From: a virus
UHGV virus genome: UHGV-0293664
DNA: 64,000 bases
Direction: 5' to 3' (one strand)
Both the position numbers and the translations under genes were made by a program. Below are positions 11,242 to 61,481 of the stretch, one piece after another; positions within the stretch are counted from its first letter, which is position 1, and each line of letters begins with the position of its first letter. A model generated the notes under the pieces. That model was not told the origin of the DNA. It saw only the letters and a program-made list of their open reading frames with translations, and made no database searches.

Positions 11242-11556
11242 GTGGAGTTGGATTTGGCGGCATTGTACGGTATCTGTATGGGTACCGTTGTCCCGATCTG
11301 TGTATGGGCTTTCAACCAGTGGCACACCAAATGGAAAGGCATTTCCCAGAGGTTGGATGAACTGGAGAAAGACCTCATCTTAGTGAAAAATAGTATGGTT
11401 ACAAAAGATAGACTTGATTCCGTTATCGAGACCCGGTTAAGCAAGCTAGAGGCCGATATTAACGACCTTAAGCAGGATGTCAGGACAGATGTCTCCGGCA
11501 TCCGAGCTGATGTACAAAAGATTTTGCACATGCTCGTAGAGCATAGTAAAAGGTAA
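11242..11556 (+). CDS. Small membrane-anchored coiled-coil protein
   Basis: 104 aa; GTG start; N-terminal hydrophobic helix then heptad-like region. Confidence 0.45.
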   Translation: MELDLAALYGICMGTVVPICVWAFNQWHTKWKGISQRLDELEKDLILVKNSMVTKDRLDSVIETRLSKLEADINDLKQDVRTDVSGIRADVQKILHMLVEHSKR

Positions 11557-17700: not shown

Positions 17701-20398
17701 GGGCAATGCCGTTGACCCTTATATCATCATGACTGCACTGAGATCAAACATGGACGGGACATCCATGTCTATGCAAATTCCGGTAACAAACGGGTACAAA
17801 CGTGTTGTGATGATCATTAAGTGCGACTTAATAGGTAAACAAGTTCTTGCAGAAAACGGGACATCCACACATCCTTTTGAGATTGCTCTGCACTATCAGT
17901 TTGCTGACTCGCCTTTTGCAGGTGATAAGAGAATATCTGATACAGATGCACAGCGTTGTAAGAAAGTATTGTTGGGTGCAGGTTGGTGGTGGTATGAGTT
18001 TGATTTAACAGACAAATTCACCGACACGTCTAAAGTTGTAACAGGACTTCGTCTAGACCTTGGCGAGAACATGCACAAAGCTGTTTGTGATGGCACCTAT
18101 GGTGACCCTACAATATACCTAAAATATATTTCTTTTGAGCATCCGGAAGATGTTGTCTACGGTCCAAAACTGAGATTGTTTGGCAGTTGGATTGCAAAAG
18201 ATAGGGTAGGCATGGGTAAGAAGGTGAGAGGGTTCTTGGTTGATGCAGGAACAGAAGACATGCTGGTTAATGCAGTATGGCCTGAATTACCTGGGACTCA
18301 GTGGAACAACTCAGCCAAATCTATAAACTGGTTTAACATCCACAGGGCTATGTGGACCACTAACTGCTACTTGTGGAGAGAGCTTAACGATCAGGCTTTT
18401 GGCTTCAGTGATGGCAGGAGGATGGCGATCATTTGCTGGACAACGCTGCAAAGATGCTATGACCATGACTACGAGATTGGTGGTAGGGCATGGAAAAATA
18501 TCAGGGACAGAATCATAACCAATTTTGCAGACGACAACGGTGGTGGAGCACATAACTTTGGCACAAGCCGACTTATCCATTTGAATGGATCCTCGGCCTA
18601 CAAGAAAGAAGGTTACTCAGGGTCCATGATCGAGTGGGGTCTGGTGAAAGATGCTCGCGTATTGATGGGCCAGCAACTTGCTGCCGCAATAGGCCCAAGC
18701 GCAGTGCAGTCGGTTAAACCAGCGTGGTTCGATATCCCATTGTGGTCACCAGGAACACCGGGAACTGCTGCAATCAACCCTACCACTGGGGATCTAGAAA
18801 TATCCTGGGAGGACTTGAAGCAGGTCGGTGGTTGGGATAAAACGGGGTATCAGGTCCAGTGGTGGAGGGCTGATGGATCTTTAGCCTCTGATGAGTTTGT
18901 TAAGGACAATTTCTACACCATGTCCTCTGCAAAAGCACAGCAATTATTTGGTCAGGCCACTCCGTCAACGATCACCATGTCTATGTGCTGTAAAGACAAC
19001 AGGACTGGAGCTTTGGGGCCAAGGGTTGCTAAGGTTTTCTCAGGTATTAAATGGAATCTCCCTGTTCAAAGTGTTTCATGGAAGCAAATAGGTGATAACA
19101 AGCTGCTGGTTACCCCTGCCTGTCAGTTCAACGCAACTCTTAACGTTGATCCTGCTGTTGCGGCAAACTCAGCTAAAGCTTCTGACTTCTCTGTGTCTAA
19201 CACTGCTATGGCAGATGTGAGGAAGATTGACACACTGAACGCCAGAATTACCTGTAAAAACACTTATGGCACATTCCAAATCATCAACAACTTCACAGAT
19301 GCTGATTCTAAGGTAGTAAGGACAGCAAGCCAGACTCTGAGTTTAGGGACTCTGGCCTATGCGGCCCTGATCACCGAACAGTCGGCAACACTCCAAGGAG
19401 GCGGTGTAGGCAAGTCCATTGCAACACCTGTGTGGAAGCCGAATGAGTGGGTTGTGTTTGATTTGACTGTGGACTTCTCCAGTGATAATAACTGGACATG
19501 GGTAAGGAATTGTTTGTCACAGTTGATGGGCGGTCCAAGCTCCATTAGCGATAGTCACGACTCTACTGACCCGAGCGTGTTCCAGGTGGGTAAAACTCAC
19601 CCAGAGACTGGAGAAACGTTGCCTGACAGGAAGTATGCTTTGGTTTGCATCTCTTACGGGAAGGCAGATGTCACCTTCTCAGGGACACACACTTATAACG
19701 GAACCTACAACTTCTCAAGGAAGTATAGTCTCAAAGCAGGGAACATTGTAGACGAGGTTGGTGTGCTGTATAATCCAGGTAACGGCATAGGGATTGTGGG
19801 TGGTCAACTGCAGATGCAGGAACCTTCTATTACACCTTCCAACGTATCCGGGATTAGAAAGACTTGGGAAAGTAGTAATACCAACATTGCAACAGTGGAT
19901 GCCACCACAGGACTGGTAACATTTAAAGCCACTGGGAATGTCACCATAAAGTTTGTAGTTACAGATGATGCAGGCCGCAAAACGTCTTCAACATCATTCA
20001 CTGTCAAACAGATGGCACCTCAGTGGTTTATTTGGGAAGGAAATCCTCTTGACGGGGCTTACCCTAGACCTGCAGGAACGTCTAATATGAGGGTCTTTAC
20101 CGGTCCGGTCATGAACAATCCGACCACAACCACCAACCCTACATTTTTTGGTGCTTACATACCTGAAATCATTGGCCTACCAAGGAACCAGATACAACTG
20201 CTTTTCGGAGCAGGTGTTGATGGTCTAGCCACCTTTGGGTACAGTGACAACATTGATGCAGCCAGAAGCTCGGGTTGGATTGGATTTAAGTTCCAGTGGA
20301 ACCCTGGTGGTAGAACATTAGGTCTTGCAAGCATAGGTGTTATGCTACCTGGTAACCAGCAATACCATCTCGAAGCTTATACAAACTTCCCTAGTTAA
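14771..20398 (+). CDS. Giant tail fibre / adhesin-like structural protein with Ig-like domain
   Basis: 1875 aa; Trp/Asn/Gly-rich; Big_2-like segment near residue 1700 (TGLVTFKATGNVTIKFVVTDDAGRK). Confidence 0.6.
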   Translation: MLPIPLLKLGRHFLDKRGGIKELAVLSYPIDNSDGTSTTVSYVNSLAILFDDGQLNITGYNRFGECRTGGLDTINYPNEAAWNVDHVWRADRAFVIRTFDNQFFYIGCTAGLIGSDAAGGNDVCVREWTPLPEQIVKGLHLDTHPERLIEVMGGINNTIWVIAEAEGTGILNLYGSGNNTYGSLHVDKNQHATPVKIGETSENPETGPWKNPSINCEVHDNSVIFGGPRGFWIAGYDFLRNNSRNDLVWPPVQITRNDLRGIPADEEWKGFMCGPNGAIIATQRMHRPDDQQLVNVFYGQDVWGDDTWRSLNITYTHEVIMARGYGTSGIFFNNGTKQYRGFSRNLCNDIGAQSANNSPRANFIHYQALATAKYVEQRLPVSWTESVYFQGIHREGFLGTFTVVNGKLWWSGIPRGSFAGSNNLFGGRLNSQGFTEVPENWYKNVPVDSWDVDDIFDVNGVSSVSNIYIGDTVKMKLKPQPEGATFIIDKIELVNAAGTVVTDANYQFSTNWNHGGANEVVVTQYNRNVNRRGLYSVKITYHDKHGTGRTHTTRTLNWNTIVPAYPSNGKWHTVGRNKQFHVNDTVYFGLNGTQPAVEGDTSYMVRLHRMDAGSVTYDVTQEIYDQRRNTYNNLVQTQAVWEFNPNGRGGKMLQVNEQNGTSLTVHKHPDPWPDPGKPHPGARTLKIVSHDVGYFGIRWEATVRYADGTTNNIGITLGGTSEDNSLKIAYTPRGISIDNMDVVRNGYGDVNVKVTLGEHLGGERIIMYAFDHDPRTNGTYANQAWSYLINAPGPNTKEFYYGMKRDVCKKTGTHDWIAICVKDERTAWDEPVNRWFIGIPTRSDKYVAEYIVCMGGTNLNMCWNEDANKYSDYDYMRDYSCNQWFNQSTGYPPRQARVNPAIFTDTQVFLTKQANKVQTFKNKYDPNKWFYNCYGAFFWGPGELPGGGSCLNEATYASDYIMGQVKKYKIIPGPETLGNAVDPYIIMTALRSNMDGTSMSMQIPVTNGYKRVVMIIKCDLIGKQVLAENGTSTHPFEIALHYQFADSPFAGDKRISDTDAQRCKKVLLGAGWWWYEFDLTDKFTDTSKVVTGLRLDLGENMHKAVCDGTYGDPTIYLKYISFEHPEDVVYGPKLRLFGSWIAKDRVGMGKKVRGFLVDAGTEDMLVNAVWPELPGTQWNNSAKSINWFNIHRAMWTTNCYLWRELNDQAFGFSDGRRMAIICWTTLQRCYDHDYEIGGRAWKNIRDRIITNFADDNGGGAHNFGTSRLIHLNGSSAYKKEGYSGSMIEWGLVKDARVLMGQQLAAAIGPSAVQSVKPAWFDIPLWSPGTPGTAAINPTTGDLEISWEDLKQVGGWDKTGYQVQWWRADGSLASDEFVKDNFYTMSSAKAQQLFGQATPSTITMSMCCKDNRTGALGPRVAKVFSGIKWNLPVQSVSWKQIGDNKLLVTPACQFNATLNVDPAVAANSAKASDFSVSNTAMADVRKIDTLNARITCKNTYGTFQIINNFTDADSKVVRTASQTLSLGTLAYAALITEQSATLQGGGVGKSIATPVWKPNEWVVFDLTVDFSSDNNWTWVRNCLSQLMGGPSSISDSHDSTDPSVFQVGKTHPETGETLPDRKYALVCISYGKADVTFSGTHTYNGTYNFSRKYSLKAGNIVDEVGVLYNPGNGIGIVGGQLQMQEPSITPSNVSGIRKTWESSNTNIATVDATTGLVTFKATGNVTIKFVVTDDAGRKTSSTSFTVKQMAPQWFIWEGNPLDGAYPRPAGTSNMRVFTGPVMNNPTTTTNPTFFGAYIPEIIGLPRNQIQLLFGAGVDGLATFGYSDNIDAARSSGWIGFKFQWNPGGRTLGLASIGVMLPGNQQYHLEAYTNFPS

Positions 20399-20410
20399 CA
20401 AGAGGAAAAT

Positions 20411-20440
20411 AAAAAGGGGCCGTTTGGCCCCTTTCTTTTT
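20411..20440. terminator. Bidirectional rho-independent terminator between convergent operons
   Basis: A-run, GGGGCC-GTTT-GGCCCC hairpin, T-run. Confidence 0.8.
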
Positions 20441-20444
20441 ATAA

Positions 20445-20645
20445 TTAGTAATATTCCCAACACGACCCATCTTCAGACGGCTGGACACGCTTACCTTCAT
20501 GATCGACATAGGTGTAACCACAGCCTTCACAGATAACAGGTGCCGCATAACCTTCCTTCCACTGCTTCTCCGTGATCAATCCTTTCAGATCTCCGCAGTC
20601 ACGACCAAACAACTCTTCAGAACAGTCTTTACAAAAATCAGCCAT
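20445..20645 (-). CDS. Small zinc-ribbon-like protein
   Basis: 66 aa; CxxC...C...CxxC pattern. Confidence 0.45.
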   Translation of the reverse strand: MADFCKDCSEELFGRDCGDLKGLITEKQWKEGYAAPVICEGCGYTYVDHEGKRVQPSEDGSCWEYY

Positions 20646-20714
20646 CTCTATCAGTCTCCATATTTAACCAATCTGTATTACATATTGCCGAAGAAACAGT
20701 ATTTCATTTCATCA

Positions 20715-20933
20715 TTACAGATCTCCAACAACTTCCCAAATACCCCAGTGAGCATCCATATCCTTGATAAAGTATCTTTCTCCACGGTTTGTCCACACAC
20801 CTATCCCAACTTTACCATCTATCCCATTGTATACATCTGCCTCATACTCTTTGCCCGGTGTAAAGTGTACACCCATCATAAGGGCTGTTATTCCGTTAGG
20901 ATTTTTAAATTTAACAAATTTTACTTTGCTCAT
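20715..20933 (-). CDS. Small hypothetical protein
   Basis: 72 aa; shares IKDxDxxWG-type motif with small proteins near the polymerase gene. Confidence 0.45.
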   Translation of the reverse strand: MSKVKFVKFKNPNGITALMMGVHFTPGKEYEADVYNGIDGKVGIGVWTNRGERYFIKDMDAHWGIWEVVGDL

Positions 20934-20934
20934 A

Positions 20935-21264
20935 TTACTTAATCCTTGCAGTTACAGTAGCGCTATACCCCATGTAGTTATGAGACATAAAGAATGTAAG
21001 CCCTTTAAGTTCAGGATTCTTTCTAAGAAATCGTTTCAATTTTCGAATGCAATTAACACCATGATCATAGTTTGAGAAATTAAATTTAATACCCTGCTCT
21101 ATCATAGTGCACACTTCTTCATGGGTATGCCATTGTCTATCGTGGTCACAAAACCAGTAACCAATACTTTCTTTTTCTTGGATATGCAACCCCCAAAATA
21201 CTTTATGCATTGGATATTTTGGTTTTCTACCATGATAATGTAGTTTAATATTCACATGTGCCAT
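20935..21264 (-). CDS. Hypothetical protein
   Basis: 109 aa; His/Cys-rich; 1-nt gap to downstream gene. Confidence 0.45.
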   Translation of the reverse strand: MAHVNIKLHYHGRKPKYPMHKVFWGLHIQEKESIGYWFCDHDRQWHTHEEVCTMIEQGIKFNFSNYDHGVNCIRKLKRFLRKNPELKGLTFFMSHNYMGYSATVTARIK

Positions 21265-21434
21265 TTTTTTGTTACTCCGTTCTGTATCTGTGATAATGAG
21301 AATAGCAAACTGGAGTGTGTGCTGTCAACAACATTTTTTAAGCGTTTTGGGGAAGTTTTTTGAAAGGTGGGTGTAATCACAAGAGGGGGTAGAGTTATTG
21401 AAGGCACAGGCCTCGTTTGAGGCCTTAAAACAGA

Positions 21435-21815
21435 TTATGATGCTTTGACGTAGCGCTCTGACAAAGCTGGGAAGCCAAAAGCAGCACCTACACTGCCGTA
21501 CGCTATCCACCATTGAAGTTCATCGTGACACCATTTTCCGATCAGAAAGGTGCTGGGGTAGCGGGTCAATATTTTGGCATAAGCTTTAGGGTCTGCATCC
21601 TCTGGGATAATGATGCTTGGAACATCTTTGTTATGACCACAGCAGCAGTTTAGAGTTTTCAATCCTGCCGCCCATAGACTCATGATAGGCTTAGCCATGC
21701 ACTTATCAAGGCACACACGTTTTTTGCCGTCTCGAAGTTTTTTAGGCACATCAACGATAACATTTGGATGCTTGGCACCTTTCACTTTCCAATTATAGGA
21801 TTTACACTTGCACAT
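21435..21815 (-). CDS. Cys-rich hypothetical protein
   Basis: 126 aa; CxC...C...CCCGH cluster; GGAG RBS 9 nt upstream. Confidence 0.45.
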   Translation of the reverse strand: MCKCKSYNWKVKGAKHPNVIVDVPKKLRDGKKRVCLDKCMAKPIMSLWAAGLKTLNCCCGHNKDVPSIIIPEDADPKAYAKILTRYPSTFLIGKWCHDELQWWIAYGSVGAAFGFPALSERYVKAS

Positions 21816-21941
21816 TTAATCAGTCTCCGTCTAGAAAGCTCTGTAACTAAAATGATGCACAAAACTACCTAGCAATGCAATCTTATGCCTGCGGTGAGTT
21901 AAGTGCGCTACAGGGACTCCTGTTGCGTTTTAAGGCATATT

Positions 21942-29664: not shown

Positions 29665-30045
29665 ATGGCCCGATGGAAGACAACGGTTGACCTGCATGAT
29701 CAGTGGTTAGGACGCATCACTGAAGACGGGAAACTAGTAGAGTGGGACAATAAACATGTCAGCGAGTTGGCAAGTATTGTGGCTGGCAAGTTACGCTCCA
29801 AGTTCCCTGAACAACTGGATCCTGATAATTCAAAGTTCGATCCTGAGTTGGAGGATGTTGTATACTACTTCGATACCGTGGATGACTACGATGCGTGGTT
29901 TGCAGCACGGGAGCTTTACCCACAAGGCTCCGCTATGCGTCAGATGGAAGAAGATTATCCTCCGTGCGAGCAATTCAATAGCGCAATGACTTGCCTCTAT
30001 GATTGGGCAGATAAGAACCTTGTCTGGATCCGGACTGCATTCTAG
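29665..30045 (+). CDS. Small acidic protein
   Basis: 127 aa; ATG 29665 with GAGGTGG RBS. Confidence 0.5.
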   Translation: MARWKTTVDLHDQWLGRITEDGKLVEWDNKHVSELASIVAGKLRSKFPEQLDPDNSKFDPELEDVVYYFDTVDDYDAWFAARELYPQGSAMRQMEEDYPPCEQFNSAMTCLYDWADKNLVWIRTAF

Positions 30046-30051
30046 CAGGCT

Positions 30052-30354
30052 GTGGCAAGGATGCCACTTAAAAGAGTAATAAGCATGTTATACCAGAAAC
30101 ACAAACTTTGTGCAGAAAAAGAGTTAAATTTTGACAAAGTTATCCACAGATATTGTTATGGGAAAACCGGAAGACAACTAAGAAGGTGTACCCCAACATT
30201 CTTTCACCCCAGTAGACGGCTAAGTCCTGAAGAAGCAACAGCAGAAAGGGTTGCATACAACTGGGAAGTTGTGTACGATATTGACAGATCCGATGTGGCA
30301 TCTGTTTTGGAAAACTTTGAAAACACTTACACACAAGTAGAGGACTTTTACTAA
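30052..30354 (+). CDS. Hypothetical protein
   Basis: 100 aa; start uncertain (GTG 30052 or ATG 30061); stop overlaps AAA gene start. Confidence 0.4.
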   Translation: MARMPLKRVISMLYQKHKLCAEKELNFDKVIHRYCYGKTGRQLRRCTPTFFHPSRRLSPEEATAERVAYNWEVVYDIDRSDVASVLENFENTYTQVEDFY

Positions 30355-31538
30355 TGTCAAGAAACGTATTTGAAAGTGGTCAAATCACTGTCCGTGAGTT
30401 GCCAGCTATCATTCAGTTTGCCCAGCGTCATAACCGATCTGTCCTGATTTTAGGACCAATGGGCGTGGGGAAGAGCCAGGTGATGAAGCAGATTGCCGAT
30501 AATATGTTCGGTGAGCGAGATGACAACCTGGTTGACGTGCGACTGTCAGATAAAGATCCTGCCGACTTATCTGGGCTACCTATCCCTGTAGAAGCGGATG
30601 GAACTACACGTACAGTGTTTGCAATTCCAGAATTCTGGCCTGCAGATCCAGACTGGAGCGGGATTATCTTTCTGGATGAGCTTACTCATGCAGATAACTA
30701 TCTACAAAAGGTTGCAATGCAGATTATGCTCGACCACAAGTGCGGCACCTATGCATTCCCTAAAGGCTCTGTTTTTGTGGCTGCGGGTAACCGTTCTACA
30801 GATGGTGCGGTTCTTTCGGCGCTCGAAGCCCCTCTGGCTAACCGTTTTATCATTGTAGAAGTTACAAGCAATGCAGAGGTGTTTATTGAGGACTACGCAT
30901 TCCTTAATGGGGTGCATTCCTCTGTAATTGGGTATCTGAAAAGAGTTCCATCAGCTATCGATAATTATGAGGCTATGGCTGAGATTAATTGTCCATCTTT
31001 TGCCACACCGCGATCTTGGGTTGCTGCATCTGACATCTTGCACGATTTTGACAGCGGTATTATTTCTGACGCTATGGCCCGTGTTCTTCTGCAAGGTGCT
31101 ATTGGTCACACTGCAGCGGTAGAGATCTGGACCTACCACACCAAGAAACGCAACTTACCGGAAATCGGTCGGATTATGGCAGGGGGTTGCAAAGAATACG
31201 TAGGTCCTAAACAGCCAGACATTTTGTGGATTCTTGGATCTGAAGGTTGTATCGCTATTCGTAATATGATGGAAAATGCAAGTATCTCCGACGAAGATCT
31301 TGTCAGCTGCGTGGCAAACTTCCTCGATTTCCTTTGGGAAAACTTCAAAGACGAGAACCGAGATTTTGTATTCTCAGTCTTTATGGCGATGATGAAACCT
31401 AATGCCTTAGGAAATGCCTTGCTTATCGGTAAAGGGCGTGACAAGATTGTTGCTCAGCTGATCAAAGCATACCCAAACCTGATGAAGATTGTAAAAGAGT
31501 TTGGTGAAGAGTTTAGCGCCATTTTGGCTAAAGCTTAA
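30354..31538 (+). CDS. AAA+ ATPase, MoxR/CobS-like
   Basis: Walker A LILGPMGVGKSQ, Walker B IIFLDELTHA. Confidence 0.7.
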   Translation: MSRNVFESGQITVRELPAIIQFAQRHNRSVLILGPMGVGKSQVMKQIADNMFGERDDNLVDVRLSDKDPADLSGLPIPVEADGTTRTVFAIPEFWPADPDWSGIIFLDELTHADNYLQKVAMQIMLDHKCGTYAFPKGSVFVAAGNRSTDGAVLSALEAPLANRFIIVEVTSNAEVFIEDYAFLNGVHSSVIGYLKRVPSAIDNYEAMAEINCPSFATPRSWVAASDILHDFDSGIISDAMARVLLQGAIGHTAAVEIWTYHTKKRNLPEIGRIMAGGCKEYVGPKQPDILWILGSEGCIAIRNMMENASISDEDLVSCVANFLDFLWENFKDENRDFVFSVFMAMMKPNALGNALLIGKGRDKIVAQLIKAYPNLMKIVKEFGEEFSAILAKA

Positions 31539-31547
31539 GGGGGTTGT

Positions 31548-31928
31548 ATGGCTAAAGTAGGTAAGCGGGGAAACTACCTGGTGGTATTGACCGAGGAGCC
31601 AGAGAAGGAGTACGAATGCAGCTCCACTTGCGTGATCGATATCCGAGAAAAAGATGTAGATGAAATCTGGTTTGAAATATTAGACGCTTGCGACAGCAGT
31701 GATTATTTCTTCATCTATGTCAACGATAAGGCTGGGTTCTTCCATGACGACGGAGAGTTGCCGTATGAAATCTATGAACTTGTAGAGGCTTGCCATCGCG
31801 GAGATGCGGAGTTGTTTGGCCTACGGCTGAAAAGCGGTAAATTCTTCTATCAAGATGAGTGCATGAATCTTCATAACTTTGTAGAGGGAACTTGCAACGA
31901 TGGAGAGATTTTGGCACACTACGATTAA
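31548..31928 (+). CDS. Small acidic protein
   Basis: 126 aa; Asp/Glu-rich. Confidence 0.5.
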   Translation: MAKVGKRGNYLVVLTEEPEKEYECSSTCVIDIREKDVDEIWFEILDACDSSDYFFIYVNDKAGFFHDDGELPYEIYELVEACHRGDAELFGLRLKSGKFFYQDECMNLHNFVEGTCNDGEILAHYD

Positions 31929-31937
31929 TTTCTAAGA

Positions 31938-31965
31938 CACCCCGCTTCGGCGGGGATTTTCTATT
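31938..31965 (+). terminator. Rho-independent terminator
   Basis: CCCCGC-TTCG-GCGGGG hairpin then T-rich tract; same hairpin as at 5218. Confidence 0.7.
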
Positions 31966-31975
31966 TGGAGTTATT

Positions 31976-32476
31976 GTGAAAATTAAGATCTTTGCTATTA
32001 TTTTGAGCGCATTTTTATCGCTGCCTGTTGTTGCAGCACCAAAACAAAAAGTATATCATACTTGCAAGCCCTCAGATACTAAGGAAAACATTCTGGCATG
32101 CAATATCTACAGGGAAGCTAGAGGGGATGGCACGATGGGTATGCTGGCATCTGGGTTTGCCACACTAAACAGGAAATCTCACCCCAAATACCCAGACACT
32201 ATAAGAAAGATCGTCTACCAACCTAACCAGTTTTCGTGGACAAACCACGGCAAAACTTTTAAGGTGACAGAAAAAGATTCATGGGATCACGCTAAAAGTC
32301 TTGCAAAGATGCTTCTAAAGGTCTATAATAACAACCATGTTGCATACATGGCTATGGATATAACAGGTGGAGCAACACACTACCATACAACCAAAGTACG
32401 ACCGAAATGGGCAAAAAAGATGCAGAGGACAGCTCAATTCGGGAACCATATCTACTACAAGGAGCGCAATAAATGA
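31976..32476 (+). CDS. Secreted cell-wall hydrolase, SleB-like
   Basis: GTG start after GGAG; signal-peptide-like N-terminus; YREARGDG...NR...YQPNQFSW motif. Confidence 0.55.
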   Translation: MKIKIFAIILSAFLSLPVVAAPKQKVYHTCKPSDTKENILACNIYREARGDGTMGMLASGFATLNRKSHPKYPDTIRKIVYQPNQFSWTNHGKTFKVTEKDSWDHAKSLAKMLLKVYNNNHVAYMAMDITGGATHYHTTKVRPKWAKKMQRTAQFGNHIYYKERNK

Positions 32477-34455
32477 TCGTAAACAGTAATGAAACTAAAG
32501 CGGTACTGACCGGGAATATGGAGGTCACCAGGGGCTCAATTTCTCTGAACAAAGAGACTTTTGGGCTAATCATTAAAGGGATTTACGAAGATAAGGTGCT
32601 GGCAAGCTGCCGTGAACCAATCTTCAATGCTGTGGACTCCCATGTTGAGTCTGGACGGGGTGATGTACCGATCATCATTCACTCTCCTACAGACCTTGAA
32701 CCATACTTCTTTGTGCAGGACGTTGGATTGGGCATGTCAGAAGAGATGGTCCGTAACACTTTCATGAACCTCGGGGAGTCAACCAAGCGCAACAGCAACG
32801 CCCTGGTTGGCAATAAAGGTGTTGGTTCAAAGGCCCCGTTCAGCATGGTGGACACTTTCGATGTGATCAGTGTGCACAATGGGGTTGAAAGCACATATCT
32901 ATTGTTCTTGGATCAGGGTATCCCAAACGTTACCAAGATCCGCGAGCGGAAGACCGAAGAGCACAATGGGGTAAAAGTTCAGTTCCATGTTAAGAAAGAG
33001 CATGTTCTGAAATATCGCACTGCTATTGCGTCATGCCTACGCTATGCAAAGTTTCCGTTTACCGTTACCGACCCTATGACCAGTAAGATGCTGGAAGGTG
33101 ACAAGGTTGAGGCGCAGTATCACTACGAGAAGGATGGTTGGAAAATGACCATCCTGAAAGGTTATACCAGCTCTGATGAGAGCCGTGTGGTGATGGGACA
33201 CCAACCTTACCGCTCTAAGTTCCTGGAAACATTGACAGACTACCCTGCAATCTGTGTGGAGATCCCTATCGGGGATTGCAATATTAACCCTGGGCGCGAA
33301 TGGACCATAGAGGGTCACGACGATGGTGGATTCCAAGAGCGTCTGGAGGCTTTTGTCAAAGAGGGTATCCGTCTTCGTGGGGCAGAAGTTGTTGCGGAAT
33401 TGGAAACAGCAAAAACATCCTCAGAAGCACGCGAAATGATGAAGAACAGCGGAGTGTTCGGGCACATCTTCGGTAAGAATTTTATGTGGGAACGATGGGA
33501 AGAGACAGGCCTAGGAAATTTGGGGGACTGTGAGATCTTCGCTGGCGGCTTAAATAAAGGCCGCATAGGTTACGCTTGTTACGGAAAGGTAGAATTCTTA
33601 CGGGGAGTCTATTTAGTATTTAACGACGGAGACGGCAAATATAACCGAAATAAGTGTAACTACTTAAGCGAGATCACCGGACGCAACGTTTTCTATTGCC
33701 GGAACACGGATCTGGTGAAAGAGTTTAAAGAGGCGGCACACCATCCGTTCTTTGCAGATACGATCAAATTGTTATCAGAGCTCCCTCGCCGACCTGCGAA
33801 GAAAGGTGAAACAAAAACTCATTATGAGCCAGGCTATTGGGTTAAAAAACTTGAGGATGATGGTTACTTCCGTCGTGAGCGTATTACTAAGGCAGAGTTC
33901 AAGAAGATTAAGCACTGCATTCCTTATGAGGGCGATATCCAACGTGGAAGTTGTTGGCTGGGACAGCTGAGTAACATCTACCAGCAAAATTATGACCGTG
34001 TGCGTGCGGCACTCCAAATTCCTGAAGGTGAAGATCTGTACTTGGTATCAGAATCTCGTCTGCTTTGGACTGATCCTGATTGCCAGTATGTTACAGAGAA
34101 GAGTGTGGAACATTTGTTGAAAGAGGATGCTTGGAAATTCTTACTGACTCGCGCAGCAAATGAAACCTCATATGACAGCCTGTATAGACAATTAGGGAAA
34201 ATTATCCCCATGCAAGATTTTGGAAATTATCGGCCACATTTCCACAAGTGGGAAGGTAACACCGCGTGGAAGCACAGTGAGCTAAATCATCGTGCCAAAA
34301 TCTTAATCGCCAACCGAGTTAAGTGCGGGAAGGCCTATATTGCAAGATTGGAAAAGAAATATCCACTTTTGAAGCATGTGGGCTTGAAATATTGGGACAC
34401 TCCTGCTATGATTGAATACCGTGAACTGATTGATACAAAGAATAACACCAACTAA
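32473..34455 (+). CDS. rIIA: rIIA-like protein with GHKL ATPase domain
   Basis: REPIFNAVDSH resembles T4 rIIA RELITNMIDAH; DVGLGM and GNKGVGSKA G-boxes. Confidence 0.6.
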   Translation: MIVNSNETKAVLTGNMEVTRGSISLNKETFGLIIKGIYEDKVLASCREPIFNAVDSHVESGRGDVPIIIHSPTDLEPYFFVQDVGLGMSEEMVRNTFMNLGESTKRNSNALVGNKGVGSKAPFSMVDTFDVISVHNGVESTYLLFLDQGIPNVTKIRERKTEEHNGVKVQFHVKKEHVLKYRTAIASCLRYAKFPFTVTDPMTSKMLEGDKVEAQYHYEKDGWKMTILKGYTSSDESRVVMGHQPYRSKFLETLTDYPAICVEIPIGDCNINPGREWTIEGHDDGGFQERLEAFVKEGIRLRGAEVVAELETAKTSSEAREMMKNSGVFGHIFGKNFMWERWEETGLGNLGDCEIFAGGLNKGRIGYACYGKVEFLRGVYLVFNDGDGKYNRNKCNYLSEITGRNVFYCRNTDLVKEFKEAAHHPFFADTIKLLSELPRRPAKKGETKTHYEPGYWVKKLEDDGYFRRERITKAEFKKIKHCIPYEGDIQRGSCWLGQLSNIYQQNYDRVRAALQIPEGEDLYLVSESRLLWTDPDCQYVTEKSVEHLLKEDAWKFLLTRAANETSYDSLYRQLGKIIPMQDFGNYRPHFHKWEGNTAWKHSELNHRAKILIANRVKCGKAYIARLEKKYPLLKHVGLKYWDTPAMIEYRELIDTKNNTN

Positions 34456-34465
34456 GGAGACCAAG

Positions 34466-35671
34466 ATGATTTTCATCTACGAACATTTCAAAACTCGTAA
34501 AGAAGCACGTGACCGCCGTGCAGAACTTGAGAAGAAGGGTTTCACATGTGCCATTGAGAAAGGTGATACAACCTGGACACTAGCAGTTGGTGCCCCAGAG
34601 CTGTTCGATCCTGACCGTGACAGCGTCTGCTACACCCGTGAGGATTTTGAAACCCGTGAAGAGGCCCGTTTATTTCGATATGGGCTGGAAGATAACGGTA
34701 AGTACGCCATGATCTTAGACTTAGGCGAAGGTTCCGTTAAACGTTGGGGCGTGGTATACCCACTGTGTGTTGTTCACGGTGTGGGGTTCACTGGTGTAGC
34801 AATCAAGTCAGAAGAACCTTTAGTAGAAGTCAAAGATCCGGTGCTGGAGGTGGTGAGCAGTGTGTCTCAGCAACAGACTCGAAGCATCGAGCCTTTGGTA
34901 GTTATTTGCGGAGAACTCCTCCAGATCACCTGCAACGAAGGCATTTTTGAAATTCGCCGCAGTGAAAGTGAGGAAGTTTACCAGAAAGTCTTTGACCATA
35001 TCTCTGTTCAGGAATATGACGAGGCAATTGGTGAAATCCTTGTCTGGCTGGAACGCAAGAATGAGTTCACCACACTTGCAGACAACTTGATCATGAAAGA
35101 TGGCAAGCTCTACTACTACGGCGTAGAGATGCGATCCACTATTGCAAAGAAAATTGAGAAAGACTATGCAGACGGAACATTGGATGACCGCTATGTGAAA
35201 TTCCTCGTTCGACTGCTACGCAATCCATCTGCAAAATCTGTAAACATGCTCTACGATTTTATGCAGGCCAATGATATTCAGATTGCAGAAGATGGTCGAA
35301 TCATTTGCTACAAAGGCGTTCAGTTTAACGGCAGCAAGTGGGTGGATTGGCACAGTGGTAAAGTCCCACAATACCAAGGTGCTTTTGTATCCATGCCTCG
35401 TAACTTTGTAGAGGATGATCCTGAAGCTGCGTGCTCCTATGGCTTACACTGCGCCAGCAAAGAGTATGCAAAGAGCTACGGCACTGTAATGACTGTTATG
35501 GTTGACCCTGCAGATGTGGTTAGTGTGCCATACCAACACAATAGCGCTAAGTGCCGTGCATGCCGCTATGAGATTGTGGTAGCTCCGGAAGCACGCAAGG
35601 ACGGCGACCCGATTGAATACGTGGTTGACCGAGACGGTAACACTATCGACATTCTTTACGAGGAGGCGTAA
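34466..35671 (+). CDS. Putative rIIB-like protein
   Basis: 401 aa directly downstream of rIIA-like gene; call is positional only. Confidence 0.35.
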   Translation: MIFIYEHFKTRKEARDRRAELEKKGFTCAIEKGDTTWTLAVGAPELFDPDRDSVCYTREDFETREEARLFRYGLEDNGKYAMILDLGEGSVKRWGVVYPLCVVHGVGFTGVAIKSEEPLVEVKDPVLEVVSSVSQQQTRSIEPLVVICGELLQITCNEGIFEIRRSESEEVYQKVFDHISVQEYDEAIGEILVWLERKNEFTTLADNLIMKDGKLYYYGVEMRSTIAKKIEKDYADGTLDDRYVKFLVRLLRNPSAKSVNMLYDFMQANDIQIAEDGRIICYKGVQFNGSKWVDWHSGKVPQYQGAFVSMPRNFVEDDPEAACSYGLHCASKEYAKSYGTVMTVMVDPADVVSVPYQHNSAKCRACRYEIVVAPEARKDGDPIEYVVDRDGNTIDILYEEA

Positions 35672-37041
35672 TGGAAAAAGGGCAGTATGATGTAGGCACA
35701 GATGCTGCCCTTGTTGCAATCATGAGCGGTGAGAATGTCTTCGTTTCAGGACCCGCAGGTTGTGGGAAGACGTACCTCATCAACATGATCCAGTCAATGT
35801 ATGGAGACTCTTGCATAACGGTTGCCCCGACAGGGGTAGCCGCTTTAAACGTTAATGGAGCAACAGCACACCGAACCTTCGATCTTGCAGCAGGTGTGAG
35901 CATGGAGTCAGACTGGACCGCAATAAGGGCAAAAACAGCAAAGCCTTTGAAAAGCAAGGCATTTACCATCCTAATTATCGATGAAATCTCTATGATCCGT
36001 GCTGATAAGTTTATAGAGATGGATAGGAAACTCCGCTTCCTTCGAAAAAATGACAAACCTTTCGGAGGCATACAGGTCATATTGTTTGGCGATTTTTACC
36101 AGGCACCTCCTGTTGTCTCTTCTATGGAGAAGGAGGCCTACTTCAACTTCTACCACACAGACCTATGTTGCTATACCGAATCTTGGAAAGAGCTTGACCT
36201 TCACAACATAGCCCTAATAGACCAGTTCCGACAGGAGTCTATTCGATTTGCCACAATGCTCAACTGTGTTCGTGAGGGTCGTCGCATAAAAGAGGTTGTA
36301 GCAGAACTTAATGCTCGCTGTTACAAAGGCGGTGTACCAACAGACGCTCTCACAATTTGCGCCACCAACAAACAAGCAGAGGAAGTGAACAGAAGGTTCT
36401 ATGATGCCATCAACGCCCCAGAGAAGGTATACACTGGTGAAATGAAGGGTAAGTTTCCCTCCACCCTGCCAGTGGAGCAGGAGATGAAGTTGAAAATTGG
36501 CATGAAAGTTATGATAACCGCCAACGATGTTGACCCGACGCACAAAGTACCTTATTATGTTAACGGAACACGTGCCACAATTGTTAAATTTAAGAACAAG
36601 GCGGTGGTGGTAGAGCTTGAAGATGGAACACAGGTTGACATAGAGCAGAGGTTGTGGGAGAATAACGAGTATAAGCCATCTCAGAGATACAACATTGCAG
36701 AAAGGAAGATGGAGAAGTTTATAGAGAGGGTAGTGATTGGGTCATACAAGCAACTTCCTCTGAAATCTGGGTACGCCGTAACATCTCATAAAAGTCAAGG
36801 ACTTACGTTAGATTGTTACAACCTAGACCTTGGAAAGAACGGAGCTTTCTCTCCTGGTATGACGTATGTTGCTTTGAGTAGAGTTAAGACAATACAAGGA
36901 ATAAACTTGTTGCGTCCACTAAGAGAGGTTGACATTATTGTTGACCCGCGAGTCGTAGAGTTTTACAATACAACATTCCCTGACTTAGACAAAATTGTCA
37001 GGAAAGATTTTGAAACCAGAGCAGAAGAGGGGGACGTATGA
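35671..37041 (+). CDS. Pif1/RecD/Dda-like SF1 DNA helicase
   Basis: Walker A GPAGCGKTY; ILIIDEISM; TSHKSQGLT; ALSRV motifs. Confidence 0.75.
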   Translation: MEKGQYDVGTDAALVAIMSGENVFVSGPAGCGKTYLINMIQSMYGDSCITVAPTGVAALNVNGATAHRTFDLAAGVSMESDWTAIRAKTAKPLKSKAFTILIIDEISMIRADKFIEMDRKLRFLRKNDKPFGGIQVILFGDFYQAPPVVSSMEKEAYFNFYHTDLCCYTESWKELDLHNIALIDQFRQESIRFATMLNCVREGRRIKEVVAELNARCYKGGVPTDALTICATNKQAEEVNRRFYDAINAPEKVYTGEMKGKFPSTLPVEQEMKLKIGMKVMITANDVDPTHKVPYYVNGTRATIVKFKNKAVVVELEDGTQVDIEQRLWENNEYKPSQRYNIAERKMEKFIERVVIGSYKQLPLKSGYAVTSHKSQGLTLDCYNLDLGKNGAFSPGMTYVALSRVKTIQGINLLRPLREVDIIVDPRVVEFYNTTFPDLDKIVRKDFETRAEEGDV

Positions 37042-41403: not shown

Positions 41404-41421
41404 CTTTAAGGAGAACACTTC

Positions 41422-42156
41422 ATGAACGAGTTCAGAGATCACTGTGTAGCCAATCACTTGTGGTCAGAGATATTGGAGTATGACGGTCAAAATCTTTTTT
41501 GGAAGATAGACATTCTGGCAGGTAGCGGTGTAGGATATGTTAAAACTTCAGCAGGCTCTAGAGCTGACAAGGGGCAAGATGCTGATGGCAGGCCTGTGGT
41601 CAGTCTAGGAAAGCATTGCACTAAAGGTGCCCACGTCATAATTTGGGAAATGTTTAACGGTCCTGTACCGGAAGGGTATGAGGTTGACCACATCAAGGAG
41701 ATAAGAGAAACAGGTGGTGTGGCTGATAACAGTATTCAAAATTTGCAACTGCTCGAGCCTACAGATAACAAAAAGAAAAGTTGCAAGATACCTCGTAGTA
41801 ACAACAAGTCTGGTAGGGTCGGGGTGCACTATTCTGAAGAAAGAGAGGCATGGATAGCTCAAGGCACAGATTCTGCAGGTGAAAGAGTCTGGCTAGGCCA
41901 GTACAGAACTTTTGAAGAGGCAGAGTGGGCAAGAAAGTTCTTCGAAGATAATGGTTTTTCGCACAAGAGTGGAAGAGCCGTGCAGTATAATAACACCAGC
42001 GGTTGCTCAGGGGTGAATTGGGATAAAACCCATGAAAGATGGGTAGCCAGAATTTATGTAGATGGTAAAAGGAAATGCCTTGGGTATTTCAAGAACAGAG
42101 AAGATGCAATAGCTGCAAGAAAGAGTGCTGAGAAGAAACAGGAGGAGACAGTATGA
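41422..42156 (+). CDS. HNH homing endonuclease with AP2 DNA-binding domains
   Basis: EVDHIKEIRETGGVADNSIQNLQLL HNH motif; two AP2-like repeats; inserted between primase-helicase and polymerase. Confidence 0.7.
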   Translation: MNEFRDHCVANHLWSEILEYDGQNLFWKIDILAGSGVGYVKTSAGSRADKGQDADGRPVVSLGKHCTKGAHVIIWEMFNGPVPEGYEVDHIKEIRETGGVADNSIQNLQLLEPTDNKKKSCKIPRSNNKSGRVGVHYSEEREAWIAQGTDSAGERVWLGQYRTFEEAEWARKFFEDNGFSHKSGRAVQYNNTSGCSGVNWDKTHERWVARIYVDGKRKCLGYFKNREDAIAARKSAEKKQEETV

Positions 42157-52361: not shown

Positions 52362-52551
52362 GCTTAAATCTGCATGGAACATCGCTGTGGGGGACGAGAT
52401 CCGTATCCCAGGTGGAAAGACCATTATGAAGATATCTCGTATCGAGTACGAAGGTGATCGTGTATTTCATATCTTTGCAGAAGATGGTCGAGAAATTTAT
52501 ATACAGGCAGGCTCTCACATCTATATCTGTAAGAAAGGGGACGACAAATGA
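52354..52551 (+). CDS. Small hypothetical protein
   Basis: 65 aa from ATG 52354 with AAGGAGGG RBS. Confidence 0.45.
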   Translation: MFKLKSAWNIAVGDEIRIPGGKTIMKISRIEYEGDRVFHIFAEDGREIYIQAGSHIYICKKGDDK

Positions 52552-52880
52552 CAGAGATCATCGTTTCAACTGCAGGGTATGTATTCCTGACAATCATTGC
52601 GTTGGCTATTCTGGTGGCGGTGTATGGATTTGTTATCCTGCCTATTCTTGAGACATTTAGTTTGTGTCGGTGTTGGAGAAAAGCTTACGGACCACAACCG
52701 TGGAAAGACTGGTTCCATTTGGTGCGTATAGCGTTCTCTTATGCCTATGACCACTCTAGCAGTGCATGCGTAACTGGGTACCATGCCTACAACTGGAACT
52801 GGGAAGGGCTGGGGAGATGGACTGTTACAAAAACTATACCCTTACGGTTGTACAAAGGAAAGAACACACTGGGAGCCTGA
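52548..52880 (+). CDS. Small membrane protein
   Basis: 110 aa; two N-terminal hydrophobic helices; ATGA overlap. Confidence 0.5.
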   Translation: MTEIIVSTAGYVFLTIIALAILVAVYGFVILPILETFSLCRCWRKAYGPQPWKDWFHLVRIAFSYAYDHSSSACVTGYHAYNWNWEGLGRWTVTKTIPLRLYKGKNTLGA

Positions 52881-55297: not shown

Positions 55298-55329
55298 AAC
55301 CACAATTGAGCGGAAAAGGAGGCTTAAAG

Positions 55330-55449
55330 ATGAGCACTACACGCCAGCACACAAAGGTAACTATTATCGTTTGCATCATTGGTTACATCCTGGCGCAAAT
55401 GTTGATGAGTAGCGCCAACAGTTTTGCAAAATTTTTCTTAAATTTTTAA
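55330..55449 (+). CDS. Small hydrophobic peptide
   Basis: 39 aa ORF below track cutoff; AAAGGAGG RBS; one predicted transmembrane helix. Confidence 0.4.
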   Translation: MSTTRQHTKVTIIVCIIGYILAQMLMSSANSFAKFFLNF

Positions 55450-56281: not shown

Positions 56282-56635
56282 ATGATCAGCGGGGCTAGTT
56301 TTATTATTGGCGCTATTGCTACGGCTTTAATTGTAAACAAGATCCAATCTAAAAACGAAAAAGATAGCAACGCGCTCACAGAATACCCATTTTGGGTATT
56401 CAACGACAACGAAGACTACATAATCAAGTACAAGAATGAGAAGGGCGACCAGGTAACACCGCGACCGATCCCGGCTTACAAAATGCAAGAAACACTATAC
56501 CGCCTAAAGGCTGGAGGCGCAAAAATCGTAGACTTTTGGGGATATGATTGCAAGGATCAGGAGGTTATAAAACGGCGTATCCGGGCGATTCAGGCAAATA
56601 TCGAGATCAGTAAGGGGGGAAGTTATGAAAATTAA
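56282..56635 (+). CDS. Small membrane-anchored protein
   Basis: 117 aa; N-terminal hydrophobic helix; AAAGGAGAAAG RBS. Confidence 0.5.
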   Translation: MISGASFIIGAIATALIVNKIQSKNEKDSNALTEYPFWVFNDNEDYIIKYKNEKGDQVTPRPIPAYKMQETLYRLKAGGAKIVDFWGYDCKDQEVIKRRIRAIQANIEISKGGSYEN

Positions 56636-58504: not shown

Positions 58505-58538
58505 CAGGCGGCGGCATATTTGCCGCCGCCTTATTGTT
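58505..58538 (+). terminator. Rho-independent terminator
   Basis: GGCGGCGGCA-TATT-TGCCGCCGCC hairpin then T-rich tract. Confidence 0.75.
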
Positions 58539-58566
58539 AAACAGAACTGCAAAAGAGGTACATAGA

Positions 58567-60862: not shown

Positions 60863-60917
60863 ACCTGGCGGGGCCGAAAAGGCCCCCAATTATGAAAATA
60901 AAGAGAGGTAAATCATC

Positions 60918-61176: not shown

Positions 61177-61232
61177 TATCACGTAGGGGAGACAAGCGCC
61201 CTATTAAACGCAACAGGAAGAGGATAAACACC

Positions 61233-61472: not shown

Positions 61473-61481
61473 TAAAATAGC

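What the first reader, a model, noticed from the sequence alone, without database searches (positions are those of the whole stretch)
31976..32476. Secreted SleB-like cell-wall hydrolase in the replication module, with no canonical lysis cassette in the window
The protein has a signal-peptide-like N-terminus and a SleB/Hydrolase_2-like motif. It lies between an acidic small protein and rIIA, separated from any candidate holin. It may be a signal-anchored endolysin or a virion-associated hydrolase, and the true lysis genes may be outside the window.
Basis: partly seen in the sequence, partly recalled or inferred. Interest (0 to 1): 0.35.

Follow-up and report, generated by a model that had tools for sequence, protein, structure and literature searches.

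The report
Known secreted SleB-type hydrolase of rV5-like phages
The gene is real and encodes a cell-wall-cutting enzyme with an export signal, but it is the already annotated gene 2 of rV5-like E. coli phages, whose proven main lysis enzyme lies outside this window.

Summary
ORF 31976-32476 (+) encodes a 166-aa protein with a signal-peptide-like N-terminus and one SleB/CwlJ-type Hydrolase_2 domain. The domain match is strong (Pfam E 6.6e-20), the AlphaFold model (pLDDT 94.7) matches only the SleB catalytic-domain structures, and the catalytic Glu47 is invariant.

The window is a Vequintavirus (rV5-like E. coli myophage). This gene is rV5 gene 2, 'cell wall hydrolase', at 98.4% nucleotide identity. 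It is present at 95% identity or more in 116 phage records.

In relatives, the lambda-R-type endolysin (rV5 gp89, LL12 gp90, LysECP26, purified and lytic), the spanins beside terL and a two-helix holin candidate all map outside the window.

The signal looks cleavable (PVVA|AP), not signal-anchor-like. The protein was not among the 19 proteins found in rV5 virions.

Most likely it is a Sec-exported accessory lytic-transglycosylase-type enzyme made at a low level. It follows a conserved terminator, starts with GTG and is coupled to rIIA. Purifying selection is strong (dN/dS 0.06). Its physiological role is untested. The gene is ordinary and already known, so interest is low.

The parts
31548..31928 (+). 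Upstream neighbour: a 126-aa acidic protein of unknown function (rV5 gp3 homologue). It is context only.
   Evidence: ORF seen; phrog_12370 at E 1.6e-88 with unknown function. It is found only in Vequintavirus records, 116 of them at 95% identity or more. It has no Pfam hit and is unrelated to the gene upstream of the T5-like homologue.
31940..31966 (+). Intrinsic-terminator-like hairpin CCCCGC-TTCG-GCGGGG followed by ATTTTCTATTT, directly upstream of the RBS.
   Evidence: Found by the scan (6 G-C pairs). It is identical to terminator t003 of rV5, listed at -16 kcal/mol. A hairpin of different sequence occupies the same position in the divergent relative L012 and in Hena1, L013, CR9 and phiMK. 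The local fold has a z-score of only -1.8.
31967..31970 (+). Shine-Dalgarno GGAG, 5 nt before the GTG start.
   Evidence: Read from the sequence. The LL12 record annotates the equivalent RBS.
31976..32476 (+). CDS of the SleB-type (Hydrolase_2) cell-wall hydrolase pre-protein: 166 aa, GTG start, homologue of rV5 gene 2.
   Evidence: dN/dS is 0.06 against the 78%-identical gene in L012.
31976..32035 (+). Predicted cleavable Sec signal peptide (aa 1-20, MKIKIFAIILSAFLSLPVVA). Cleavage is inferred between A20 and A21.
   Evidence: Hydrophobicity and composition. Signal-like N-termini occur in nearly all of the 150 nearest family representatives. This segment evolves fast (dN/dS 0.70) but keeps its signal-peptide character in L012. 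The CB7 homologue is reported to have a predicted signal peptide. No SignalP run was possible.
32063..32101 (+). Cys30 (32063-32065) and Cys42 (32099-32101), a pair conserved in the closest subclade. They may form a periplasmic disulfide; this is an inference.
   Evidence: Alignment A1 shows the H-x-C...L-A-C-N-I-Y pattern in the window protein and in P0004, P0012, P0014 and P0016. The distance between the two residues in the model could not be measured.
32114..32116 (+). Codon of Glu47, the predicted catalytic glutamate in the motif Y-R-E-A-R-G-D.
   Evidence: Glu47 aligns with the Glu of YGESRGE in SleB 4f55/4fet. Y45, E47 and R66 are invariant in 55-56 family members.
32126..32458 (+). Core of the Hydrolase_2 (PF07486) domain match, aa 51-161.
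   Evidence: The whole mature part (aa 28 to 163) is modelled at pLDDT above 93 and matches the SleB catalytic domains.
32473..34455 (+). rIIA homologue. Its ATG overlaps the hydrolase stop (ATGA), which implies translational coupling.
   Evidence: The overlap is conserved in L012.

Best explanation
The ORF is the Vequintavirus homologue of rV5 gene 2. It encodes a small pre-protein with a cleavable Sec signal peptide of about 20 residues and a single SleB/CwlJ-type (Pfam Hydrolase_2) catalytic domain. The following steps are inferred. The protein is exported by Sec, cut by signal peptidase I after Ala20, and released as a 16.9-kDa, very basic (pI about 10) soluble periplasmic enzyme. There it cleaves peptidoglycan glycan strands using Glu47. 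By analogy with SleB it would act as a lytic transglycosylase. It is not the phage's main endolysin. In relatives that role belongs to a lambda-R-type enzyme encoded elsewhere, with the spanins beside terL. The SleB-type enzyme is best read as a holin-independent accessory muralytic enzyme that weakens or remodels the sacculus from the periplasmic side. Its dose appears to be kept low in three ways: it lies just after a conserved terminator hairpin with no room for a promoter, it uses a GTG start, and it shares its transcript with rIIA and rIIB. What the data show: family, fold, conserved catalytic residue, signal-peptide features, gene order, purifying selection, and the absence of lysis genes from the window. 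What is inferred: export and cleavage, enzymatic chemistry, low expression, and an accessory role in lysis.
For: Family and fold. Catalytic residue: Glu47 is invariant. Selection: the mature domain has dN/dS 0.03 against a 78%-identical relative. Signal peptide. The T5-like homologue has a textbook signal peptide ending SHA|T, and a signal peptide was predicted for CB7_83, which was also toxic when expressed in E. coli (data not shown in that paper). Known gene: 98.4% nucleotide identity to rV5 1980-2480, listed as 'cell wall hydrolase, PF07486' in rV5 Table S3. Main endolysin elsewhere: LL12 gp90 matches lambda lysozyme 1am7 at E 3e-56. rV5 gp89 is called the 'obvious lysin'. LysECP26, which has the same MKLDKNV N-terminus, was purified and lyses EDTA-treated Gram-negative cells. 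The gene is present in about 110 Vequintavirus records, including the window's closest relatives. The family can act as a true endolysin: Pseudomonas phage Ab31 ORF65 belongs to it, lacks a signal and sits in a Q-holin-endolysin-Rz cassette. Regulation: terminator t003 lies immediately upstream and the nearest predicted upstream promoter is P010. The hairpin and the GTG or TTG start are conserved across genera with different stem sequences.
Against: No muralytic activity, export or processing has been shown for this protein or for any Gram-negative-phage Hydrolase_2 enzyme in the papers I could search. SignalP could not be run. The history of T4 RI, long called a SAR protein and later shown to have a cleavable signal peptide, shows that such calls need experiments (title). 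A freely active periplasmic muramidase made early should cause premature lysis, so some restraint is needed that I cannot identify. The annotators of LL12 left this gene as 'hypothetical' while naming gp90 the endolysin. A promoter-like site inside the gene (32301-32329) and possible unrecognised phage promoters leave expression timing uncertain.
Confidence: 0.55

Rival explanations
1. It is a signal-anchored (SAR-type) endolysin. The N-terminal helix is not cleaved and tethers an inactive enzyme to the inner membrane. Membrane depolarisation by a holin or pinholin releases and activates it. Under this view it is a co-equal or ancestral endolysin of the subfamily.
For: In sister genera the gene is followed directly by a small multi-TMD, holin-like protein: CB7_82, Hena1_02090 and L013 5583-5813. 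The gene is conserved in all Vequintavirinae genera, whereas the second hydrolase differs between genera. The Pakpunavirus homologue phiMK gp141 has an N-terminal TM-like segment with no basic n-region. Early synthesis without early lysis would be explained.
Against: The hydrophobic core is 59% I/L/F/V and only 35% G/A/S/T. A published SAR example, MKQKLLISAATAAAIYIAAP, is about 56% G/A/S/T. A Pro at -4 and a V-x-A|A site fit signal peptidase I. Nearly all close family members end their signals in A-x-A-type sites. The small membrane protein is absent at this locus in the window, and no homologue is detectable there.
Confidence: 0.15
2. It is a periplasmic peptidoglycan-remodelling enzyme with an early, non-lytic job. 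Examples would be local opening of the sacculus, altering the envelope against superinfection, or working with the rII membrane-integrity functions. Lysis itself would be left to the lambda-R-type enzyme.
For: It lies in the early/replication transcription unit 10-1-238-164 and not among late genes. It is translationally coupled to rIIA, and the order hydrolase-rIIA-rIIB-helicase is conserved across genera. In the phi92-like phage VivaForever a good sigma-70 promoter (TTGCAA-17-TACAAT) precedes the gene. Purifying selection is strong even though a separate endolysin is present. T5-like phages also keep it far from their holin-endolysin pair.
Against: No specific partner or target is identifiable. 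Certrevirus phages lack rIIA/rIIB yet keep the gene. The same family serves as a plain endolysin in Ab31. This reading is an argument from location only.
Confidence: 0.2
3. It is a virion-associated hydrolase that helps the tail penetrate the cell wall at infection.
For: Hydrolase_2 domains occur inside very large proteins of more than 1000 aa in Rhizobium and Agrobacterium phages; I take these to be virion proteins from their size only, without checking.
Against: The protein is small, stands alone and carries an export signal that would remove it from the cytoplasm where virions assemble. The gene is outside the structural module. It is not among the 19 proteins identified in rV5 virions. The PA5oct SleB-domain protein was likewise absent from virions.
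Confidence: 0.03
4. It is a catalytically dead or merely peptidoglycan-binding relic.
For: No activity data exist. The SleB equivalog model scores far below its cut-off.
Against: The catalytic Glu and all near-invariant family positions are kept. The mature domain has dN/dS 0.03. The homologue CB7_83 was reported to be toxic on expression.
Confidence: 0.03

Closest known systems
rV5 gene 2 product ('cell wall hydrolase' / 'SleB') and its orthologues in Vequintavirus phages (FFH2, slur16, nomine, LL12_002 and others)
   Same: It is the same gene. Identity is 98.4% at the nucleotide level and about 98-99% at the protein level. Length (166 aa), start codon, upstream terminator t003, acidic upstream neighbour and overlap with rIIA all match.
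   Different: Only a few substitutions differ. Annotations across records vary between 'hypothetical', 'cell wall hydrolase', 'SleB' and 'endolysin'.
CB7_83 and CR3_087, the SleB-like hydrolases of Certrevirus, and the Hena1 cell wall hydrolase (Vequintavirinae)
   Same: They share the family and about 50% identity. They also share a predicted signal peptide, the upstream hairpin and a position in the early region.
   Different: In those genera a small multi-TMD, holin-like gene follows the hydrolase. The window lacks it, and the hydrolase stop overlaps the rIIA start instead.
Bacillus SleB (spore cortex-lytic enzyme; PDB 4f55, 4fet)
   Same: The catalytic-domain fold and the catalytic Glu in the Y-x-E-[AS]-R-G-[ED] motif are shared.
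   Different: Identity is only 24%. The N-terminal PG_binding_1 domain of SleB is absent. The TIGR02869 equivalog model scores 50 bits against a cut-off of 236.5. SleB needs muramic-delta-lactam in spore cortex (established knowledge), and E. coli has none. The substrate specificity must therefore differ.
Sec-exported endolysins with cleavable signal peptides (the Lys44 paradigm of Oenococcus phage fOg44; recalled from memory, not checked here) and SAR endolysins (P1 Lyz, R21)
   Same: Export to the wall compartment does not depend on a holin, and it happens before lysis.
   Different: The catalytic family is different. No experimental evidence exists here. SAR features are not met.
Ab31 ORF65, a Hydrolase_2 endolysin in a lambdoid lysis cassette
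   Same: The catalytic family is the same, at about 31% identity.
   Different: The Ab31 protein has no signal peptide and sits between a multi-TMD holin-like gene and an Rz-like gene after Q, which is the classic holin-dependent arrangement.

Membership tests
Pfam Hydrolase_2 (PF07486; SleB/CwlJ catalytic domain) | Score above the curated gathering threshold over the full domain | tested here: met
   72 bits against a cut-off of 27, E 6.6e-20, covering profile positions 2-100 of 100.
Pfam Hydrolase_2 (PF07486; SleB/CwlJ catalytic domain) | SleB catalytic-domain fold | tested here: met
   The AlphaFold2 model has pLDDT 94.7. Its only significant PDB matches are 4f55 and 4fet, at probability 1.00 and TM 0.75-0.79 normalised to the target.
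Pfam Hydrolase_2 (PF07486; SleB/CwlJ catalytic domain) | Conserved catalytic glutamate in the Y-x-E-[AS]-R-G motif | tested here: met
   E47 aligns with the Glu of YGESRGE in SleB and is invariant in 55-56 homologues. That this Glu is the catalytic residue is taken from the SleB structure papers, recalled from memory.
SleB proper (spore cortex-lytic enzyme, TIGR02869 equivalog) | Full-length match above the equivalog cut-off, including the N-terminal peptidoglycan-binding domain | tested here: not met
   50.1 bits against a cut-off of 236.5. Only profile positions 83-201 (the catalytic part) match. Pfam finds no PG_binding domain.
SleB proper (spore cortex-lytic enzyme, TIGR02869 equivalog) | Lytic transglycosylase activity dependent on muramic-delta-lactam | not testable with these tools
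   This needs biochemistry. The host is a non-sporulating Gram-negative bacterium.
Phage endolysin (functional class) | Muralytic activity and a requirement for host lysis | not testable with these tools
   No experimental data were found in six literature searches. [quoted passage not shown]
Phage endolysin (functional class) | Location in a lysis cassette, or adjacency to holin or spanin genes | tested here: not met
   The neighbours are an acidic protein and rIIA. There is no holin or spanin homologue in the window. The nearest membrane proteins are unrelated ORFs of unknown function.
SAR (signal-anchor-release) endolysin | Uncleaved N-terminal TMD rich in Gly/Ala/Ser/Thr and lacking a signal peptidase site | tested here: not met
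   The core is 35% G/A/S/T and 59% I/L/F/V, with a PVVA|A site. This was tested by composition only; no SignalP run or experiment was possible.
SAR (signal-anchor-release) endolysin | Partner pinholin or holin | tested here: not met
   None is adjacent. The small membrane protein of sister genera is absent here.
Virion-associated peptidoglycan hydrolase | Present in purified virions, or encoded in or fused to structural genes | tested here: not met
   The protein is not among the 19 rV5 virion proteins. The gene lies in the replication unit. The MS depth was limited.
Sec signal-peptide protein (signal peptidase I substrate) | Basic n-region, hydrophobic h-region of 7-17 residues, and small residues at -3 and -1 | tested here: met
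   The n-region MKIK, the h-region IFAIILSAFLSLPVVAA, and V(-3) and A(-1) before A21 are all present. The same design is seen in L012 (SFA|A) and in most family members. Actual cleavage was not tested.

The most novel reading that the evidence does not exclude
The signal-peptide SleB-type hydrolase may be a conserved core gene of Vequintavirinae, and independently of T5-like, phi92-like and Pakpuna-like phages, with a role distinct from end-point lysis. Under this reading it would be an early, dose-limited periplasmic peptidoglycan remodeller. Its expression would be set by a conserved terminator-readthrough hairpin and a weak start codon. It would condition the envelope, possibly together with rIIA/rIIB or as the remnant of an ancestral hydrolase-plus-small-membrane-protein lysis module. 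The canonical endolysin would then be a freely swapped add-on.
Probability: 0.2. Interest if true: 0.5.

Novelty: already known. Interest (0 to 1): 0.2.

Why it matters
For annotation, this gene should be named 'secreted SleB-family (Hydrolase_2) cell wall hydrolase'. It should not be named 'SleB' or, without evidence, 'endolysin'. A window-limited scan should not infer a missing or unusual lysis system: in this phage group the lysis genes are scattered and lie outside the window. One biological question stays open, and others have already noted it. Many large virulent phages of Gram-negative bacteria keep a strongly selected, exported second muralytic enzyme far from their endolysin. Simple genetics and biochemistry could answer why. 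The enzyme may also interest enzybiotic work, as a small, very basic lytic enzyme of a little-studied family.

Tried and rejected
1. A conserved two-gene module of acidic protein plus hydrolase, shared with T5-like phages. This was prompted by the rV5 table, which lists a T5.083 hit for gp3. I rejected it. The acidic protein is found only in Vequintavirus and is unrelated to the gene upstream of the T5-like hydrolase.

2. The longer ORF from TTG 31892 (194 aa). I rejected it. It runs through the terminator hairpin and overlaps the upstream gene. All relatives and the RBS support GTG 31976.

3. A single-sequence AlphaFold model was unusable, with pLDDT 50.8. I replaced it with an alignment-based model.

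5. A search for a relocated copy of the Henunavirus small membrane protein in the window and in LL12 found nothing significant; the best hit was E 0.26.

6. PHROG and Pfam scans of the window's membrane-protein ORFs for holin families gave only unknown-function families.

7. RBS sequestration by an outer stem around the terminator is possible in the minimum-free-energy fold, but the z-score of -1.8 is not significant, so I make no claim.

8. Six literature searches for an experimentally characterised Hydrolase_2 enzyme from a Gram-negative phage found none.

9. The word-index homologue search found only 10 proteins. The exhaustive search was needed to see the family: 11,602 representatives at E 0.001 or below.

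Full report
**What is there.** The finding's coordinates match an ORF exactly. A GTG at 31976 lies 5 nt after a GGAG, and a TGA stop ends at 32476, giving 166 aa.
- The product matches Pfam Hydrolase_2 (PF07486, the SleB/CwlJ catalytic domain) at E 6.6e-20 and 72 bits, against a cut-off of 27.
- It matches PHROG 938 'endolysin' at E 5e-28.
- It matches the crystal structures of the Bacillus SleB catalytic domain, 4f55 and 4fet, at E 2e-6.
- A single-sequence AlphaFold model was poor. With a 55-sequence alignment the model reached pLDDT 94.7.
- That model's only significant PDB neighbours are 4f55 and 4fet, at probability 1.00 and TM 0.75-0.79.
- In the viral structure library it matches dozens of phage 'cell wall hydrolase SleB' proteins.
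- In family alignments Y45, E47 and R66 are invariant. E47 aligns with the Glu of the SleB motif YGESRGE.

**Where the window comes from.** The region 30000-36000 is 96-97% identical to rV5-like E. coli myophages of the genus Vequintavirus, including bov10K2, slur16, nomine and PDX.
- The gene is 98.4% identical to rV5 positions 1980-2480. It is present at 95% identity or more in 116 phage records.
- The rV5 genome paper lists it as gene 2, 'cell wall hydrolase', 166 aa, 19.05 kDa, pI 10.0, PF07486.
- Other records call it SleB, cell wall hydrolase, endolysin or hypothetical protein.

The gene is already known and annotated.

**The lysis genes.** I mapped the window onto the completely annotated relative LL12. 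The window covers LL12 33904 to 1 and 136016 to 106159.
- LL12's annotators named gp90 (71587-72057) the endolysin and gp65/gp66 (60847-61529, next to terL) the spanins. They could not identify a holin, and they left the SleB-type gene as 'hypothetical'.
- gp90 is a close homologue of phage lambda R lysozyme/transglycosylase (PDB 1am7, E 3e-56).
- The rV5 paper calls the equivalent gp89 the 'obvious lysin'. It proposes the 78-aa, two-TMD gp129 as the holin.
- The same enzyme from the rV5-like phage ECP26, LysECP26 (156 aa, N-terminus MKLDKNV), has been purified. It lyses EDTA-treated Gram-negative cells.
- All these genes lie outside the window's span. tblastn finds no copies of them in the window; the best hit is E 0.28.
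- The lambda-R-type gene is present in about 110 Vequintavirus records, including the window's nearest relatives.

They hold for relatives; the rest of this particular genome is not available to me.

**Export signal.** The N-terminus is MKIK-IFAIILSAFLSLPVVAA-PKQK.
- It has a basic n-region and a 17-residue hydrophobic core. The core has mean Kyte-Doolittle 2.6, is 59% I/L/F/V and only 35% G/A/S/T.
- A Pro sits at -4, and V-x-A precedes Ala21.
- This is the design of a substrate for signal peptidase I. It is not the design of a Gly/Ala-rich SAR anchor; a published SAR example is about 56% G/A/S/T.
- An exhaustive search found 11,602 cluster representatives at E 0.001 or below. Nearly all of the 150 nearest carry an N-terminal signal, often ending in an A-x-A-type site.
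- The T5-like homologue has a textbook signal peptide ending SHA|T.
- A signal peptide was also predicted for CB7_83, the Certrevirus homologue, which was toxic when expressed in E. coli (data not shown in that paper).
- Two cysteines, C30 and C42, are conserved in the nearest subclade and could form a periplasmic disulfide. This is an inference.
- I could not run SignalP, so cleavage remains a prediction.

**Selection.** I compared the gene with a divergent relative from a metagenome contig, L012, at 78% nucleotide and 81% amino-acid identity.
- dN/dS is 0.06 overall and 0.03 in the mature domain.
- dN/dS is 0.70 in the signal peptide, which nevertheless keeps its signal-peptide character.

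This is what is expected of an active exported enzyme.

**Regulatory context.** A strong hairpin, CCCCGC-TTCG-GCGGGG plus a T-run (31940-31966), lies directly before the RBS.
- It is terminator t003 of rV5, listed at -16 kcal/mol. The nearest predicted upstream promoter on that strand is P010, about 4 kb away.
- The gap between hairpin and RBS leaves no room for a sigma-70 promoter.
- In L012 a hairpin of different sequence (ACCCCC-GAAA-GGGGGT) occupies the same place. Hena1, L013, CR9 and the Pseudomonas phage phiMK also have a GC-rich hairpin 10-25 nt upstream of their homologues.
- The start codon is GTG in the window and L012, and TTG in Hena1, L013 and VivaForever.
- The stop codon overlaps the rIIA ATG (ATGA). 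This overlap is conserved in L012.
- The rV5 paper places the gene in transcription unit 10-1-238-164, together with replication genes and not with late genes.

I infer low, attenuated expression through terminator readthrough. A promoter-like site inside the gene (32301-32329) and unknown phage promoters keep this uncertain.

**Comparative picture.** The family is used in three export modes.
- It appears as a signal-less enzyme in a classic Q-holin-endolysin-Rz cassette in Pseudomonas phage Ab31.
- It appears with a cleavable-looking signal peptide in Vequintavirinae, T5-like phages and Mendera.
- It appears with an N-terminal TM-like segment in phiMK.
- It also occurs as a domain inside proteins of more than 1000 aa in some alphaproteobacterial phages, which I take to be virion proteins from their size only.

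Within Vequintavirinae the SleB-type gene is reported to be conserved in all genera. The second hydrolase differs between genera: lambda-R type here, M15 peptidase in CB7 and Septuagintavirus, and a lysozyme-like enzyme in PVP-SE1. In Vequintavirus the lambda-R allele is itself mosaic, whereas the SleB-type gene is 95% identical or more in every record that carries it.

In Henunavirus and Certrevirus a small multi-TMD, holin-like protein follows the hydrolase. In Henunavirus the order is hydrolase, small membrane protein, rIIA, rIIB, helicase. That small gene is missing in the window, and no relocated copy is detectable.

**Interpretation.** The best-supported reading is a Sec-exported, signal-peptide-cleaved, soluble periplasmic glycan-strand-cleaving enzyme. 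By analogy with SleB it would be a lytic transglycosylase. It would act as an accessory, holin-independent muralytic factor beside the proven lambda-R-type endolysin, with its dose kept low.
- The SAR reading is less likely on composition, but only experiment can exclude it.
- An early, non-lytic remodelling role cannot be excluded and is the most interesting residual possibility.
- A virion role is disfavoured by the export signal and the gene's location. The protein is also absent from the 19 proteins detected in rV5 virions. The PA5oct homologue is likewise absent from virions.

**Membership.** The protein is a member of the Hydrolase_2 family by score, fold and catalytic residue. It is not an orthologue of spore SleB: the TIGR02869 model gives 50 bits against a cut-off of 236.5, and there is no peptidoglycan-binding domain. 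The name 'SleB' is therefore a domain label only. 'Endolysin' is a functional claim that has not been tested.

**Verdict.** The feature is an already described gene of a well-sequenced phage group. Its physiological role is unresolved, and others have already flagged this. Interest is low.

Noticed in passing
window 31940-31966; L012 about 1075-1100; L009 about 2930-2960; L013 about 4965-4990; L011 about 2880-2915; L008 2773-2814: A GC-rich hairpin followed by a T-rich run lies 10-25 nt upstream of the Hydrolase_2 start codon in several genera. The stem sequences differ but the position is the same. The start codon is often GTG or TTG. Together these look like a conserved dose-limiting arrangement.
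   Followed up: partly
L009 3511-3744 (Hena1_02090); L013 5583-5813; L011 about 3450-3640: Henunavirus-type phages encode a small multi-TMD protein of 76-77 aa between the SleB-type gene and rIIA. CR9 shows what looks like a frameshifted remnant. The window lacks this gene, and the hydrolase stop overlaps the rIIA start instead.
   Followed up: partly
window 58534-58938 (+): This ORF has two strong transmembrane helices followed by a charged stretch (DKGNNRKGK). It matches phrog_13090, of unknown function, with the profile starting at Met12. It is the only two-TMD small protein in the window and belongs to no known holin family.
   Followed up: partly
window 52548-52880 (+), 56282-56635 (+), 55306-55449 (+), 59158-59277 (+), 11242-11556 (+): These are further small single-TMD proteins of unknown function in the early region. 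One N-terminal-TMD, coiled-coil-like 104-aa protein lies among the tail-fibre genes.
   Followed up: no
GenBank records MG065635-MG065690 (hits H5-H8, H62-H80): More than 16 records labelled 'Campylobacter phage' with host C. jejuni are 96-99% identical to E. coli rV5-like phages over this region. The host label looks doubtful.
   Followed up: no
L003 22121-22327 (LL12 gp91, outside the window): A 68-aa protein with a signal- or lipobox-like N-terminus (MKDFLLAILFMAACLACG) lies directly downstream of the lambda-R-type endolysin. It has no Pfam hit. It may be relevant to the unidentified holin or lysis-control genes.
   Followed up: no
window 3362-4230, 20026-21937, 41416-42152, 61153-62312: These stretches have no match or only a patchy megablast match to LL12. 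The one at 41416-42152 lies in the DNA polymerase region, where LL12 has an annotated intron. This suggests intron or homing-endonuclease variation.
   Followed up: no
window 32301-32329 (+): A sigma-70-like site (TTGCAA-17-TATAAT, 10 of 12 matches) lies inside the hydrolase gene. It is partly kept in L012 (TTGCAA-17-TACACT). It could give rIIA its own promoter, but coding constraints confound the comparison.
   Followed up: partly
phage records (for example A141, A13b, DrSchubert, ECML-10, phiWec196): The lambda-R-type endolysin gene of Vequintavirus is mosaic. In some genomes only the first 42 nt match at the nucleotide level. The SleB-type gene, by contrast, is 95% identical or more in all 116 records.
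   Followed up: no
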